A DNA stretch of 35,433 bases from Candidatus Woesearchaeota archaeon. Lineage in GTDB: Archaea > Nanobdellota > Nanobdellia > SCGC-AAA011-G17 > GW2011-AR17. The notes beneath the pieces were generated by a model that was not told where the DNA came from, ran no database searches, and saw nothing but the letters and a program-made list of their open reading frames with translations. The position numbers were made by a program, and so were the translations under genes. Where the stretch lies: contig RFJO01000038.1 of NCBI GenBank assembly GCA_003694495.1, forward strand, positions 1-35,433. The letters run 5' to 3'. Shown here piece by piece: positions 32 through 14,220 of the stretch; the stretch's first letter is position 1; each line of letters opens with the position of its first letter.

Positions 32-502
32 TTAAGACAAACAATAAACTAATTTGATGTTTAAGTCTGTAAGAGGAATGTTTTTGTCTTCAACTATATT
101 ATGTTTGCATTGAAGATCAATGTCCGGAATAGAAACTAATTCTTTGTCGTTGTTTTTAATTGTCATCTTTATTGTTTCCCTGGAATACTCTTTATTGAAA
201 AATGTTCTTAACATATTATCACTTTCATCTTTAACTAATGTACAACTATCTTCATACCCGCATATAGACTTGGATTCAGAACAGGCAACTATAACGTCTA
301 CCATGGTTTTTGAACTGCAGGGAGTATATTTAGTATAAGCCTGCAAAAAGTTGTTTAGTTGGATACTGATTATTGACTCTTCTTGTATGTTGCTTTTGGG
401 TTTTGAGGCAAACCTGAAAAAGAATGCTACCAAGACTAAAATTAAAATAATTATAACTAACAAACCTATCATTTCTCCGCCTTGTGCTTTCTTTTTAATC
501 AT
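32..502 (-). CDS. prepilin-like small exported protein (156 aa), function unknown
   Basis: This is the last gene of the minus-strand cluster, and its start overlaps the upstream stop by 4 nt (ATGA, 499-502). The N-terminus MIKKKAQGGEMIGLLVIIILILVLVAFFF has a short basic segment, then A-Q, then about 22 hydrophobic residues, which is the layout of archaeal class III (type IV pilin-like) signal peptides. The rest is hydrophilic with 6 Cys. No named family recognised. Confidence 0.55.
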   Translation of the reverse strand: MIKKKAQGGEMIGLLVIIILILVLVAFFFRFASKPKSNIQEESIISIQLNNFLQAYTKYTPCSSKTMVDVIVACSESKSICGYEDSCTLVKDESDNMLRTFFNKEYSRETIKMTIKNNDKELVSIPDIDLQCKHNIVEDKNIPLTDLNIKLVYCLS

Positions 503-1053
503 TTTAAATATAATTTTAATCTAAGCTTGCCCATCCTGTAAGAGTTTATGCTCGGAAAGTATAAGGATACAGGAGTTTCCAGGATCTGAACGTTTTTCTT
601 GCCTTTTATATCTTCTTTGCCAGGCTCAAATAAAGTCCATTTGTCACAGTTGTCAGGGTATTCAGCTGAACGCATTAACTCTTCTGTGCATTCTGTGTCG
701 TTAACTTTTGGAGTTGGATAAGACTGGATGAAAGTTATGGATTTTTTGCATAAGCCTCTATTAAGATTTTTTATTGAGGGTTCGTTTTTGTAGGAGATTA
801 CTTTTGCAATGTCAACACAATCGTTATCATGAGCTTGGGTGCTGCATTTTATCTCGGGAAGGTTTAAGATTGAGGATAATTGTTCGCCTGTGCTCAACAC
901 GCAACTTTCTTCGCCAACTTTCTTTGTTTGGGATATGGAAGTTTTGAAAAAGAAGTACATGCCTAAGCCTATTATAATAAATATTACAAAAATTACCATG
1001 ATGCTTTCCATCATGCCTATCTGGCCTTTAGAAGATTTCAGGGCAATCACCAC
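499..1053 (-). CDS. prepilin-like exported protein (184 aa), function unknown
   Basis: The ORF has a GTG start at 1053 and overlaps the upstream gene by 26 nt. The N-terminus MVIALKSSKGQIGMMESIMVIFVIFIIIGLGMYFF has K-G-Q followed by a hydrophobic helix with a Glu a few residues after the putative cleavage site, which is prepilin-like. The remainder is soluble with 6 Cys. Confidence 0.55.
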   Translation of the reverse strand: MVIALKSSKGQIGMMESIMVIFVIFIIIGLGMYFFFKTSISQTKKVGEESCVLSTGEQLSSILNLPEIKCSTQAHDNDCVDIAKVISYKNEPSIKNLNRGLCKKSITFIQSYPTPKVNDTECTEELMRSAEYPDNCDKWTLFEPGKEDIKGKKNVQILETPVSLYFPSINSYRMGKLRLKLYLK

Positions 1054-13800: not shown

Positions 13801-14220
13801 AATATCGCACCTTTGTTCTGTCACGTAAGAACAAGTTGCACCGCCAAGAACGCAACAACCTTTCTTGCATTCTTGTACAGAGGAACATTCCGCGTCAGCC
13901 ACCCATTTGAACCCTTGCAGTTCGCAAGCAGCTTTAGAAGTCTGTTTTGAACATGATCCTTCGTCAGTAACACAACAACCTAATGCGCAGTAAGTTGTAT
14001 CTTCACATTTCTTGAACGTCTCAATATTATAATCCTGGTTGCAGTTTTCAACTGAAGTGTAAACGCAATTGTCTCCAGATATAGTTTGCTCACAACAGGC
14101 CATGTCTTTTAACTCTTCCTCAGCTGAAACTTCTTTCAAAGCTACACCCGAAATGAATGTTAAGCTTATTATAAGATAAATCATAAAAACAGCTTTTTCT
14201 TTTATCAACCCTTTTTTCAT
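10834..14220 (-). CDS. giant cysteine-rich surface protein, paralog A (1128 aa), unknown family
   Basis: ATG start 21-30 nt downstream of a TTTTAAATTT box. The signal peptide is ...MIYLIISLTFISGVALKEVSA followed by EEE. The block order matches paralog B (ACCEQTISGDNC..., DVYWFDSCGNPEDVAEDCDY, GSRHYRHICINGQEIVEPCKDYREEIC, CRSLGDCGAHYNYLG). There are two strong TM helices (aa 558-617), then CQPWQPPPGGDDCSKCDENPMKPCSEYRCRSLGANC, followed by four repeat modules. Confidence 0.85.
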   Translation of the reverse strand: MKKGLIKEKAVFMIYLIISLTFISGVALKEVSAEEELKDMACCEQTISGDNCVYTSVENCNQDYNIETFKKCEDTTYCALGCCVTDEGSCSKQTSKAACELQGFKWVADAECSSVQECKKGCCVLGGATCSYVTEQRCDIMLENYPELDKDFRQSGSEFECTAICRSADRGCCVKDDSCTWGTRGNCGLPDGVGGNGFYKDVFCSNQNLNCECERHYRKGCLDGEEDVYWFDSCGNPEDVAEDCDYTYKSSICSEADSFHEEAYCKSVNCITTWEDPTSTDPQNGKTRLNGESWCSYDAKVGPTFDVVGSRHYRHICINGQEIVEPCKDYREEICTSITATDAPQGEMKVAQCKPNRWKDCTTTCNTAKDAKDEEEQKIRMKEDKQCCERSDLRDCEWISEDENNGLCIPLVAPGLKFWSDDENQQTPDASAVEECEKGTYEAKAKWGRKKLDVTSKWECKNNCDVYKDEFLQTRNQFCRSLGDCGAHYNYLGKFTNDGSIRTWEKDPVGNPKIRVDEEMAGNFLEKWKQAGNALDFGKFSMQDYWGKLGGIRGYEGAISGGVIGGTIALVGLGMVAYVAILEAIAAPVLVSASIPVIGWVIAAIGVIIAALTIAFTWPETEDRTVTVTCQPWQPPPGGDDCSKCDENPMKPCSEYRCRSLGANCRFIAENEGTGRETCINANPKDVEKPVIKPHPESLKVVSKRNDITQQYTISSTPSGYKINPEVPAFSKVSFGIQTNEPSQCYYTTEFKDKYLFTDYTSPMPDTFYDSVHNITYNNLQPDTEYKFYIACRDSQPNPKDDEYVTPYIIEFKTDNSPDLDVPYIVSTYLPKNNKIAHNKNSTPIMVYVDEVSEFDCKISTHDQDYELMETEMGCAQNPPESLYSSYNYCAALVNVSEGANTYYIRCQDHPVNSEPNTNTESYVVQFEKTPPLEIIAKGPSGELYDKNITMFVQVSGGADGTASCTYDSDKVSGAFGVTNTSKNENVFTDLPPGQYNFNIRCTDYVENVALTEINFTSIRDYDAPFVTSLKKSGDNIIVKLNEPATCEYMNSSFVFGQGKTSAINSDIHSLSGEGSYTLICKDLFDNIMNPVNIVPYLPRIKVVKKSVLPTIPNAPTSTPSNVKTIGS
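12370..12549 (-). other. two-helix transmembrane hairpin of paralog A
   Basis: AISGGVIGGTIALVGLGMVAYVAILEAIAAPVLVSASIPVIGWVIAAIGVIIAALTIAF forms two ~22-25 residue hydrophobic stretches joined by a short turn. Confidence 0.7.

What the first reader, a model, noticed from the sequence alone, without database searches (positions are those of the whole stretch)
32..14220. Eight-gene, 14-kb same-strand cluster: three giant Cys-rich paralogs interleaved with five prepilin-like proteins, a candidate undescribed archaeal surface or attachment apparatus
All eight ORFs from 14220 down to 32 are on the minus strand. They have tiny gaps (5, 13, 37 and 50 nt) or overlaps (ATGA at 2639-2642 and 499-502, and 26 nt at 1028-1053).

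Gene order:
- giant A;
- giant B;
- pilin-like, 253 aa;
- giant C;
- pilin-like, 182, 343, 184 and 156 aa.

I cannot place any product in a named family. Several different pilin-like proteins next to very large exposed proteins recalls bacterial minor-pilin/tip-adhesin operons (fimU-pilVWXY1E) or T2SS pseudopilin sets (GspH-K).

However, the large proteins here have their own Sec-type signal peptide and a membrane hairpin, which does not fit those models. No assembly ATPase (PilB/FlaI-like), platform protein (PilC/FlaJ-like) or prepilin peptidase is present in the window.

The cluster runs to the left edge of the window, so it may continue beyond it. In a small-genome archaeon, such a large investment (about 40% of this window) in Cys-rich exposed proteins would fit host or partner attachment. 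That functional idea is pure inference.
Basis: partly seen in the sequence, partly recalled or inferred. Interest (0 to 1): 0.88.

Follow-up and report, generated by a model that had tools for sequence, protein, structure and literature searches.

The report
Conserved Woesearchaeal pilin-like surface gene module
This is a real gene cluster found in many Woesearchaeota (tiny, probably host-dependent archaea), always next to the cell-wall (S-layer) gene; it encodes three huge disulfide-rich membrane-tethered surface proteins and five pilin-like proteins, none in any named family, and most likely builds a cell-surface adhesion or envelope complex.

Summary
Eight tightly packed minus-strand genes (32-14220) encode three paralogous Cys-rich giants and five small proteins with class III (prepilin-like) N-termini.

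None reaches a Pfam or NCBIfam cut-off or matches a PDB sequence. The cluster is not an island: every related locus found comes from a Woesearchaeota, Nanoarchaeota or unclassified archaeal MAG, in the order giant(s)-p253-giantC-p182-p343-p184-p156-S-layer gene.

New findings:
- **Fusion.** The 253-aa protein is the detached N-terminal module of the giants. In sister lineages the two are one 1000-1350-aa protein that keeps the KKGQxTxF N-terminus.
- **Anchor swap.** The mid-protein hydrophobic hairpin occurs only in split giants.
- **Fold.** Each giant's C-terminal half is four Ig-like domains.
- **Pilin families.** The five small families share only their N-terminal helices. p184 carries an invariant Glu and p156 a near-invariant one.
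- **Assembly machinery.** Woesearchaeota MAGs encode pilus-type ATPase/platform operons elsewhere, but linkage to them is rare.

Best reading (about 0.45): a membrane-rooted, pseudopilus-like stem of pilin-like proteins that holds giant adhesin-type proteins in or through the S-layer. Main rival (about 0.3): an S-layer scaffold in which the pilin-like ends are only anchors.

It is a new variant of a known kind. Function is inferred.

The parts
10834..14220 (-). Giant A, 1128 aa. Sec-type signal (res 1-33), Cys-rich N-ectodomain, hydrophobic hairpin, Cys knot, four Ig-like domains.
   Evidence: ORF; paralog alignment; hydropathy; family of >800 DB proteins, all unnamed.
7455..10796 (-). Giant B, 1113 aa, with the same architecture. 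This is the protein that was modelled.
   Evidence: AF2 mean pLDDT 82. The 50 best Foldseek matches listed per library are mostly tandem Ig/FN3-type proteins. Internal repeats.
10161..10706 (-). Giant B residues 31-212: four tandem ~40-50-aa 'GCC...C...C' Cys-rich repeats. Fused relatives keep only about one of them.
   Evidence: Repeat alignment; HMM coordinates in fused proteins.
8898..9050 (-). Giant B residues 583-633: Gly/Ala-rich hydrophobic segment plus a TM helix, read as a membrane hairpin.
   Evidence: Hydropathy. AF2 helix 617-632 with low confidence over 577-619. Present only in split giants.
7482..8699 (-). Giant B residues 700-1105: four Ig-like beta-sandwich domains, each with a conserved C...C-x-D pair.
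   Evidence: Weak Pfam Big_13 / Y_Y_Y hits, below cut-off.
12358..12552 (-). Giant A residues 557-621: 65-aa hydrophobic hairpin.
6643..7404 (-). p253. Class III-like N-terminus MVKKRGQITIFVILGIVI followed by a two-lobed alpha/beta ectodomain with 4 conserved Cys. It is the carrier/anchor module of the giants.
   Evidence: Alignment A2. AF2 pLDDT 92 with no fold match. Fused to giants in relatives. Directly followed by a giant gene in 64 of 70 cases.
2639..6637 (-). Giant C, 1332 aa, starting 5 nt after p253. Two weakly hydrophobic segments (res 629-649 and 815-837; nt 4691-4753 and 4127-4195) are separated by a ~165-aa K/N/S/T-rich loop.
2094..2642 (-). p182, pilin-like (MKKGQLMSQPFVYIFALILGG), 2 invariant Cys. 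Its N-terminal 70 aa are related to those of p343.
   Evidence: A4; hhalign 97% probability with p343; motif statistics.
1028..2059 (-). p343, the largest pilin-like protein (MKKRGMVSPVFKYIFALIVG), with no conserved Glu. An alternative TTG start lies at 2080.
   Evidence: A5.
499..1053 (-). p184, pilin-like, with an invariant Glu (SKGQIGMMESIMVIF) and 4 invariant Cys.
   Evidence: A6. Marginal N-terminal matches to geopilin/PilA. Weak N-terminal match (E 0.005) to the pilin-like gene of a Woesearchaeal TFF operon.
32..502 (-). p156, the smallest pilin-like protein (KKAQGGEMIGLLVIIIL), with near-invariant Q and E and conserved Cys. It is the last gene before the S-layer gene in relatives.
   Evidence: A7; hhalign 97% probability with p184.
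14243..14250 (-). TATA-like TTTTAAAT, 23-30 nt upstream of the giant A ATG. Candidate promoter of the cluster; would fit a short or absent leader.
   Evidence: Read directly from the sequence. Inference only.

Best explanation
This is a vertically inherited cell-envelope module, found so far only in Woesearchaeota/Nanoarchaeota-type MAGs. It lies just upstream of the S-layer gene, often with PCNA on its other side.

The functional unit is a giant, disulfide-rich ectoprotein (a Cys-rich head plus four Ig-like domains, adhesin-type) working with a ~250-aa 'carrier' module, p253, that has a class III (prepilin-type) N-terminus. In sister lineages the two are one polypeptide, in effect a giant modular pilin. 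In this genome they are split, and each giant has gained its own Sec signal and a mid-protein membrane hairpin as a replacement tether.

Four further pilin-like proteins (p182, p343, p184, p156) are proposed to be cut by the prepilin peptidase. They would then assemble through their N-terminal helices with p253 into a short, membrane-rooted, pseudopilus-like stem. The pilus-type ATPase and double platform that Woesearchaeota encode elsewhere would probably drive assembly. The stem would hold and orient the giants in or through the S-layer, where their Ig-like arms and Cys-rich heads bind a partner cell or surface.

Shown: gene content, paralogy, motifs, conserved cysteines, fold of the C-terminal half, synteny, the fusion, and the anchor swap.

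Inferred: peptidase cleavage, assembly into a stem, contact with the S-layer, and the adhesion function.
For: Class III-type N-termini:
- The motif [KR][GA]x followed by a hydrophobic helix is present in 143 of 155 orthologs. The first 32 residues are more conserved than the rest of the protein in all five families.
- p253 has near-invariant K4 G6 Q7 T9 F11 G15 in proteins that are only 30-70% identical overall.
- The five families resemble each other only over their N-terminal 30-80 residues, as pilin sets do.
- p184 has an invariant Glu and p156 a near-invariant Glu.
- The N-terminal part of the p184 profile weakly matches (E 0.005) the pilin-like gene of a Woesearchaeal ATPase/platform operon, which starts MKKKSQIAIETLMIYG.

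Extracellular location:
- Each family has 2-4 invariant or near-invariant Cys.

p253 and the giant as one unit:
- The p253 profile finds 8618 representative proteins. Many are 1000-1350 aa with the p253 domain at the N-terminus followed by the giant core.
- In split genomes, 64 of 70 p253 genes are directly followed by a giant gene.
- A hydrophobic mid-region is present in 0 of 28 fused proteins and in 65% of 112 split giants (p = 2.6e-15).

Fold of the giant:
- Four Ig-like domains. The 50 best Foldseek matches listed per library are mostly tandem Ig/FN3 proteins, including adhesion molecules, the GhpA grappling hook and the Sap/SbsC S-layer proteins.

Conserved order and context:
- 33 of 35 loci with room have p343, p184 and p156 after the last giant.
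- 29 of 30 have an S-layer (PF05124-type) homolog as the next gene.

Assembly machinery in the taxon:
- PF00437 ATPases named from Woesearchaeota MAGs are common.
- One MAG has a minimal operon of ATPase, two platform genes and one pilin-like gene.
- One fused p253-giant gene lies back-to-back with such an operon. A p253-family gene lies 9.6 kb from another.

Precedent:
- Archaeal type IV pilus loci with large adhesin- or S-layer-like proteins and Cys-rich minor pilins are described (PMC4858521).
- Modular pilins are described in bacteria (PMC8179133).
Against: - No ATPase, platform protein or prepilin peptidase lies within 10 kb of the split cluster in any locus.
- Only 1 of about 14 long-flank loci with a fused gene is next to such an operon.
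- Co-occurrence of the cluster and the machinery in the same genome was not tested.
- None of the five small proteins matches a curated pilin model. However, the class III-like small proteins of the ATPase/platform operon in L088 do not match either.
- The p253 model has a Pro-rich break between the TM helix and the next helix, and no pilin came up in the fold search.
- Two divergent p253 homologs carry a lipobox/TAT-like N-terminus instead of the class III motif. The N-terminus may therefore be only a tether.
- A giant held by a membrane hairpin cannot ride on an extending fibre.
- One preprint states that type IV pilus components are missing from DPANN genomes (10.1101/2020.05.14.094862). 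contradicts that for Woesearchaeota.
Confidence: 0.45

Rival explanations
1. S-layer scaffold or anchor complex with no filament. The class III-like N-termini serve only as membrane anchors, cleaved or not. This would resemble the archaellum proteins FlaF/FlaG, which sit under and bind the S-layer, or the class III-signal sugar-binding proteins of the Sulfolobus bindosome (both comparisons are from my own knowledge). The eight proteins would form a housekeeping envelope structure that ties the S-layer to the membrane or spaces the two apart.
For: - The cluster is a core, single-copy locus fixed next to the S-layer gene in 29 of 30 loci, often with PCNA upstream.
- No assembly genes are linked to it.
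- The anchor is exchangeable: hairpin versus covalent p253, and a lipobox-type N-terminus in L077/L079.
- Sap and SbsC S-layer proteins are among the fold matches.
- The p253 model has a Pro-rich break after its TM helix.
Against: - A plain anchor would not need the near-invariant K-G-Q-x-T-x-F motif, or an invariant Glu inside the helix.
- Five distinct families sharing only that N-terminal region is the signature of a pilin set.
- Fused relatives stand alone, away from any S-layer gene.
- The proteins evolve faster than a housekeeping neighbour: 39-70% identity against 80% for PCNA.
Confidence: 0.3
2. A true extended type IV pilus whose minor-pilin set (p253, p182, p343, p184) primes a p156 fibre that carries the giants at its tip. 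This would be a direct analogue of FimU-PilVWXY1E.
For: - Five pilin-like genes of graded size lie next to large exposed proteins.
- The smallest protein, p156, has the Q..E motif.
- TFF machinery exists in the taxon.
- Fused p253-giant proteins resemble tip-located modular pilins (PMC8179133).
Against: - Split giants have a membrane hairpin and their own Sec signal, so they cannot leave the membrane on a fibre.
- No PilY1-like beta-propeller or vWA domain was seen.
- No major-pilin gene amplification and no linked ATPase.
Confidence: 0.1
3. A host-membrane insertion or fusion device. The Gly/Ala-rich hydrophobic segments of the giants would act like fusion peptides, and the pilin-like stem like a piston, to open cytoplasmic bridges to a host cell.
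For: - The mid-region segments are Gly/Ala-rich and only moderately hydrophobic (for example GIGALVTLYIVL and AGIVTSGVMGAVA).
- Cytoplasmic bridges and nanotubes are reported for other DPANN-host pairs (PMC11329633).
Against: - Fused relatives lack these segments entirely. That fits a tether, not a conserved fusion peptide.
- No class I, II or III fusion-protein fold is among the 50 best structure matches listed for each library.
- In the one system resolved, the nanotubes come from the host, not from the DPANN cell (PMC11329633).
Confidence: 0.05
4. A horizontally acquired island, suggested by the higher GC of 3-14 kb.
For: GC is 0.41-0.46 across the giants, against about 0.31-0.39 for most 1-kb bins in the rest of the window.
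Against: - The excess sits at codon position 2 (0.42-0.43 against about 0.30), which reflects amino-acid composition. GC3 overlaps that of the housekeeping genes.
- The same position and order recur across about 77 species-level genomes.
Confidence: 0.02

Closest known systems
Archaeal type IV pilus (TFF) loci with large adhesin- or S-layer-like proteins and Cys-rich minor pilins (Makarova et al. 2016, PMC4858521; for example Thermoproteales clade 4G, and the Methanococcales system with DUF2341/PilY-like proteins)
   Same: Several different class III-signal proteins, one or two very large secreted or membrane proteins, an associated S-layer-like gene, and conserved cysteines in most components.
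   Different: - Those loci are defined around an ATPase and a TadC-like platform. This cluster never contains either.
- The protein families are unrelated at sequence level (no Pfam, NCBIfam or PDB hit).
- The giants here have a mid-protein hairpin and a split/fused relationship with one of the pilin-like proteins.
Bacterial minor-pilin/tip-adhesin sets (FimU-PilVWX-PilY1-PilE) and T2SS pseudopilins GspG-K
   Same: Five pilin-like proteins of graded size share only the N-terminal helix. Some have the conserved Glu and the largest lacks it (as in GspK, from my own knowledge). They are encoded together with large exposed proteins.
   Different: - The leader is of the archaeal type ([KR]G|Q).
- The giants are not PilY1-like: no propeller or vWA domain was found.
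- The giants are tethered to the membrane.
- No major-pilin gene, ATPase or secretin equivalent is nearby.
Modular type IV pilins (Streptococcus sanguinis PilB/PilC; PMC8179133)
   Same: In the fused relatives, a pilin-type N-terminal module carries a bulky functional module on the same chain.
   Different: - The passenger here is about 800-1100 aa of Cys-rich plus Ig-like domains, larger than the 860-residue extreme case that paper cites.
- In this window the two modules are separate genes.
- The p253 module itself (220 aa, two lobes) has no match to a known pilin fold.
Class III-signal proteins that do not form long fibres: Sulfolobus bindosome sugar-binding proteins, and archaellum FlaF/FlaG (ArlF/ArlG), which sit under and bind the S-layer (from my own knowledge)
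   Same: Pilin-type N-termini used to place ectodomains in the space between the membrane and the S-layer. The cluster is genetically tied to the S-layer gene.
   Different: No sequence or fold relationship was found. Nothing here resembles a substrate-binding protein or an archaellin-like beta-sandwich.
S-layer proteins (PF05124 S_layer_C of the neighbouring gene in relatives; SlaA/SlaB; Sap, SbsC)
   Same: Large, exposed, built from tandem beta-sandwich domains, membrane-tethered, and encoded next to the true S-layer gene.
   Different: - No PF05124 match or match to any other S-layer model.
- Three paralogs, each with a Cys-rich head.
- Fused relatives occur away from S-layer genes.

Membership tests
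Type IV pilin-like (class III signal peptide) proteins | Short basic leader ending in [KR]-[GA], with a small or polar +1 residue (often Q in archaea) | tested here: met
   All five window proteins. 143 of 155 orthologs; +1 is Q in 105 of those 143.
Type IV pilin-like (class III signal peptide) proteins | A hydrophobic helix of about 20 residues directly after the cleavage site, as the most conserved part of the protein | tested here: met
   Hydropathy. AF2 helix 6-31 in p253. The N-terminal 32 residues are more conserved than the rest in all five families. Similarity between families is confined to this region.
Type IV pilin-like (class III signal peptide) proteins | Match to curated pilin or archaellin N-terminal models in Pfam or NCBIfam | tested here: not met
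   No such hit at E <= 1 for the window proteins in Pfam or NCBIfam, nor among orthologs of p184 and p156 in Pfam. The class III-like small proteins of a TFF operon in a related archaeon also fail, so this test has little power in this group.
Type IV pilin-like (class III signal peptide) proteins | Pilin fold: a long alpha-1 helix packed on a beta-sheet | tested here: inconclusive
   Only p253 was modelled (pLDDT 92). It shows a TM helix, a Pro-rich break, a 32-residue helix and then alpha/beta lobes. There was no significant Foldseek match to anything, pilins included.
Type IV pilin-like (class III signal peptide) proteins | Cleavage by an A24-type prepilin peptidase (PibD/FlaK/EppA) | not testable with these tools
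   Needs proteomics or an in vitro assay. Whether the peptidase gene is present in this genome could not be checked.
Type IV filament (TFF) system | Genomic linkage to a PilB/FlaI-type ATPase and a TadC/FlaJ-type platform | tested here: not met
   None within 10 kb in 77 genome loci or about 30 split metagenome loci. Exceptions concern relatives only: L088 (fused gene beside T2SSE and two T2SSF genes) and L167 (p253-family gene 9.6 kb from such an operon). The machinery exists in the taxon.
PilY1-type pilus tip adhesin | C-terminal beta-propeller, with or without a vWA or DUF2341 domain | tested here: not met
   AF2 gives four Ig-like sandwiches. No such Pfam domain was found. The 50 best Foldseek matches listed are mostly Ig/FN3-type.
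Archaeal S-layer protein (PF05124 S_layer_C) | Match to the S-layer C-terminal domain model | tested here: not met
   No hit for any of the eight proteins. In relatives the model hits the next gene downstream instead.
Fusexin / class II fusion proteins (HAP2, archaeal Fsx1) | Three-domain class II fold with fusion loops | tested here: not met
   No such structure is among the 50 best PDB or viral matches listed. Caveat: Ig-like matches dominate the lists, so the Cys-rich head was never searched on its own.

The most novel reading that the evidence does not exclude
The cluster encodes a previously unseen archaeal envelope organelle. A pseudopilus-like stem of five pilin-type proteins is permanently rooted in the membrane and passes through the S-layer, displaying giant disulfide-knotted 'split modular pilins'. 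This would be the main host-recognition and attachment device of Woesearchaeota, and its fused ancestors would be the largest pilins known. Under this reading, the p253 carrier superfamily (8618 clusters at 50% identity) would be a general DPANN platform for displaying interchangeable surface modules.
Probability: 0.25. Interest if true: 0.85.

Novelty: new variant of a known kind. Interest (0 to 1): 0.6.

Why it matters
Woesearchaeota are among the most widespread uncultivated DPANN archaea. How they recognise and hold on to partner cells is unknown.

This module takes up about 40% of the window and is conserved in every related genome examined. It is entirely 'hypothetical' in public annotation, and it is one of the few conserved candidates for the cell-contact machinery.

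The split/fused relationship gives a concrete, testable prediction: p253 binds the giant. It also defines a very large, unnamed family of class III-signal carrier proteins.

If the pilin-like set really assembles, it would show a pilus-type machine being used to build a fixed envelope structure rather than a fibre.

Tried and rejected
Searches that found nothing useful:
- Pfam and NCBIfam scans of all eight proteins gave nothing above cut-off. The only weak hits were Y_Y_Y and Big_13 in the giants' C-termini.
- Pfam scans of every ortholog of p184 and p156 gave only noise.
- Profile searches of all six families against PDB sequences gave nothing significant. p184 had marginal N-terminal hits to geopilin/PilA at E 0.1-1.5.
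- Foldseek of the confident p253 model against the PDB gave no match with E below 0.007 or TM above 0.2.
- Foldseek of the giant against the PDB and the viral library returned mostly generic Ig/FN3 matches among the 50 listed.
- Six literature searches found no description of this cluster. A 208-genome Nanobdellota preprint does not mention pili, S-layers or cysteine-rich proteins.
- A regex screen of all genome loci for ATPase or A24 motifs found nothing relevant.

Leads considered and dropped:
- I used the metagenome scan to ask whether fused genes are usually next to TFF operons. They are not; only L088 is.
- The foreign-island idea is rejected.
- An apparent p184-p156 fusion in L030 is an artefact of masked bases.

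Not achieved:
- I could not test whether the cluster and the TFF machinery or peptidase occur in the same genome.

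
Full report
**1. Observation**

The window is a complete 35,433-nt contig of a Candidatus Woesearchaeota MAG (locus tags D6777_, P0005, P0121). Eight minus-strand ORFs fill 32-14220:

| Gene | Coordinates | Length |
|---|---|---|
| giant A | 10834-14220 | 1128 aa |
| giant B | 7455-10796 | 1113 aa |
| p253 | 6643-7404 | 253 aa |
| giant C | 2639-6637 | 1332 aa |
| p182 | 2094-2642 | 182 aa |
| p343 | 1028-2059 (alternative TTG start at 2080) | 343 aa |
| p184 | 499-1053 | 184 aa |
| p156 | 32-502 | 156 aa |

The exception is the '13-nt gap', which belongs to the TTG start rather than to the 343-aa product.

A TATA-like TTTTAAAT lies 23-30 nt upstream of the giant A start codon.

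The rest of the window is ordinary archaeal housekeeping: PCNA, IleRS, TBP, MCM, an RPA-like protein, aIF2-beta, a Rio kinase, S15, S3Ae and four tRNAs. No ATPase, platform protein or peptidase is present.

**2. The giants**

- They are paralogs: 49% and 36% identity to A, with dozens of invariant Cys. Cys content is 5.0-5.9%.
- The AF2 model of giant B (mean pLDDT 82) and repeat alignments give this layout:
  - a Sec-type signal;
  - four tandem ~40-50-aa 'GCC...C...C' repeats (residues 31-212);
  - a beta-rich, Cys-rich domain extending to about residue 560;
  - a poorly predicted Gly/Ala-rich hydrophobic stretch plus a TM helix (583-633);
  - a small Cys knot (C-x2-WQPPPG...CSEY-x-C-x-SLG);
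  - four Ig-like sandwiches, each with a conserved C...C-x-D pair.
- Giant A has a 65-residue hydrophobic block. Giant C has two weaker segments separated by a ~165-aa low-complexity loop. With a cleaved signal peptide, a hairpin would put both halves of the protein outside the cell.
- The 50 best Foldseek matches listed per library are mostly tandem Ig/FN3 proteins. They include adhesion molecules, titin, the GhpA grappling hook, the Sap and SbsC S-layer proteins, and phage fibre proteins. The Cys-rich head has no assigned fold.
- No Pfam, NCBIfam or PDB-sequence match is significant.

**3. The five small proteins**

- Each starts with a basic leader ending in [KR]-[GA], usually followed by Q, and then a hydrophobic helix. 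This holds in 143 of 155 orthologs. In all five families the N-terminal 32 residues are more conserved than the rest of the protein.
- Profile-profile comparison shows the families resemble each other only over their first 30-80 residues. p182 pairs with p343 and p184 pairs with p156, each at about 97% probability. That is the pattern of a pilin or pseudopilin set.
- p184 has an invariant Glu (KGQ-x-x-M-x-E). p156 has a near-invariant Q-x-x-E.
- Each family keeps 2-4 invariant or near-invariant Cys. This fits a disulfide-bonded ectodomain.
- The p253 model is confident (pLDDT 92): TM helix 6-31, a Pro-rich break, helix 38-69, then two alpha/beta lobes. It matches nothing in the PDB.
- No curated pilin model hits any of the five. 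The class III-like small proteins of a TFF operon in a related archaeon also fail this test, so it is uninformative in this group.

**4. Conservation**

- The giant family has more than 800 database members and the p253 family 86 in the word-indexed search. Nearly all named hits are 'hypothetical protein' from Woesearchaeota, Nanoarchaeota or unclassified archaeal MAGs; one is labelled 'bacterium'.
- A scan of species-representative genomes returned 78 loci, all from such MAGs.
- The order giant(s)-p253-giantC-p182-p343-p184-p156 recurs throughout.
  - 64 of 70 p253 genes are directly followed by a giant gene.
  - 33 of 35 loci with room have p343, p184 and p156 after the last giant.
  - 29 of 30 have an S-layer (PF05124-type) homolog as the very next gene.
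- PCNA is often on the other side.
- In divergent lineages the repeated unit is a p253-giant pair (L084, L085, L073, L065, L061, L056).
- The higher GC of the giants sits at codon position 2, so it reflects amino-acid composition.
- Between the window and its closest relative, the cluster proteins are 39-70% identical and PCNA is 80% identical. Faster divergence of this kind is what one expects of exposed proteins (my inference).

**5. The fusion**

- A p253 profile searched against 1.84 billion representative proteins found 8618 hits at E <= 0.001 and 389 at E <= 1e-30. Many are 1000-1350 aa with the p253 domain at residues 1 to ~255.
- Their sequences and HMM coordinates show the p253 domain followed by the giant core, the Cys knot and Ig-like domains.
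- They keep the KKGQ-x-T-x-F N-terminus. They lack the Sec signal, about three of the four GCC repeats, and the hydrophobic mid-region.
- On the mid-region, 0 of 28 fused proteins have a segment with mean hydropathy >= 1.6, against 65% of 112 split giants (Mann-Whitney p = 2.6e-15).
- I read this as one functional unit whose membrane tether can be supplied in either of two ways: covalently by p253, or by a hairpin in the giant.
- Other paralogs put the p253 module in front of different 250-500-aa C-terminal parts (L107, L108, L126). p253 therefore looks like a general carrier module.
- Fused genes stand alone, with none of the four other small genes or an S-layer gene beside them.

**6. Link to pilus machinery**

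- No locus of the split cluster contains an ATPase, platform protein or peptidase.
- The machinery does exist in the taxon. A T2SSE-type ATPase from L088 finds many close homologs named from Woesearchaeota MAGs.
- In one such MAG the operon is minimal: a 269-aa gene, the ATPase, two platform genes and one 157-aa pilin-like gene.
  - That gene starts MKKKSQIAIETLMIYG and weakly matches (E 0.005) the N-terminal part of the p184 profile.
  - A p253-family gene lies 9.6 kb upstream on the same contig.
- One fused p253-giant gene lies back-to-back with an ATPase, two platform genes and several class III-like small genes. None of the other roughly 13 long-flank fused loci does.
- Linkage to the machinery is therefore occasional, not conserved.

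**7. Interpretation**

*Shown.* The module is conserved, vertically inherited and unnamed. It encodes membrane-tethered giants whose C-terminal halves are tandem Ig-like domains, as in many adhesins and S-layer proteins. It also encodes a carrier partner that is fused to the giant in other lineages, and four further proteins with pilin-type N-termini. It is fixed next to the S-layer gene.

*Inferred.* The small proteins are cleaved by the prepilin peptidase. Their N-terminal helices bundle into a short membrane-rooted stem. The stem positions the giants in or through the S-layer for adhesion.

*Why not a long fibre.* The hairpin argues against giants riding on an extending pilus.

*Main rival.* The pilin-like ends could be mere anchors in an S-layer scaffold. 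The core-locus character, the exchangeable anchors and the lack of linked assembly genes favour that view. The strict conservation of the leader motif and the helix Glu argue against it.

**8. Comparison with known systems**

- The overall design matches what Makarova et al. describe for several archaeal type IV pilus loci: large adhesin- or S-layer-like proteins plus Cys-rich minor pilins (PMC4858521).
- The fused relatives match the modular-pilin idea (PMC8179133).
- This cluster differs in four ways:
  - every protein family is new at sequence level;
  - the core machinery is absent from the locus;
  - there is a split/fused carrier relationship with a compensating hairpin;
  - the cluster is tied to the S-layer gene.
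- No paper in the library describes it.

**9. Verdict**

I rate it a new variant of a known kind, interest 0.6. The function remains an inference. The most useful next tests are whole-genome co-occurrence with the A24 peptidase and TFF genes, multimer prediction of p253 with the giants, and proteomic evidence for leader cleavage.

Noticed in passing
window 14489-15127 (-) and 14259-14492 (-): A lipoprotein-like (LLLGC) molybdopterin-oxidoreductase-domain protein (PF00174, E 8.5e-38) is ATGA-coupled to a 77-aa ORF with two hydrophobic stretches that has no family match. The pair lies directly upstream of giant A on the same strand. In the three relatives whose upstream genes were annotated (L001, L004, L084), the gene there is different.
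   Followed up: partly
window 33250-34071 (+) and 34068-35408 (+): Two ATGA-coupled ORFs with signal-peptide-like N-termini sit at the right edge: a 273-aa S/T/P-rich protein and a 446-aa Cys-containing protein. Neither has a Pfam match. Their GC3 is strikingly low (0.17-0.19, against 0.32-0.46 for all other genes in the window).
   Followed up: partly
window 16487-17089, 17061-17600 and 18252-18683 (+): An overlapping gene pair encodes a nucleotidyltransferase-domain protein and a HEPN-domain protein; such pairs are often toxin-antitoxin modules (my own knowledge). A further solo HEPN gene follows, between PCNA and a 451-aa multi-pass membrane protein gene (18711-20066).
   Followed up: partly
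window 30631-30798 and 33083-33233 (+): Two tRNA-Gln genes (anticodons TTG and CTG) lie 18 nt apart, and a tRNA-Thr/tRNA-Val pair lies 3 nt apart.
   Followed up: no
L079 9800-10585 and L077 (match 10001-10555): The divergent p253 homolog in L079 starts with a twin-arginine/lipobox-like N-terminus (RRGFFSVLGTFTILGC) instead of the class III motif, and has no giant gene beside it. L077 shows the same giant-free gene arrangement, but its N-terminus was not read. This suggests the anchor of this ectodomain is interchangeable.
   Followed up: partly
L088 1-2269 (-) and 14172-16001 (+): Next to the TFF operon and the fused p253-giant gene lies the end of a 6948-aa protein with Laminin_G_3, Peptidase_S8 and Cu-binding_MopE domains. 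On the other side is a 609-aa protein with 53 Cys. This looks like a second, different set of giant surface proteins in a related archaeon.
   Followed up: no
L087 14104-19041 (+); L086 5638-6417 (-); L087 8744-9511 (-): A 1645-aa protein with C1q and a faint H_lectin hit directly follows a fused p253-giant gene. In two independent loci, a bacterial-type prolipoprotein diacylglyceryl transferase (LGT, PF01790) gene lies close to the fused gene.
   Followed up: no
L084 8566-9236 and 14674-15379: RHH/PIN toxin-antitoxin pairs are inserted between components of the cluster in one divergent lineage: after the first p253-giant pair, and after the second giant.
   Followed up: no
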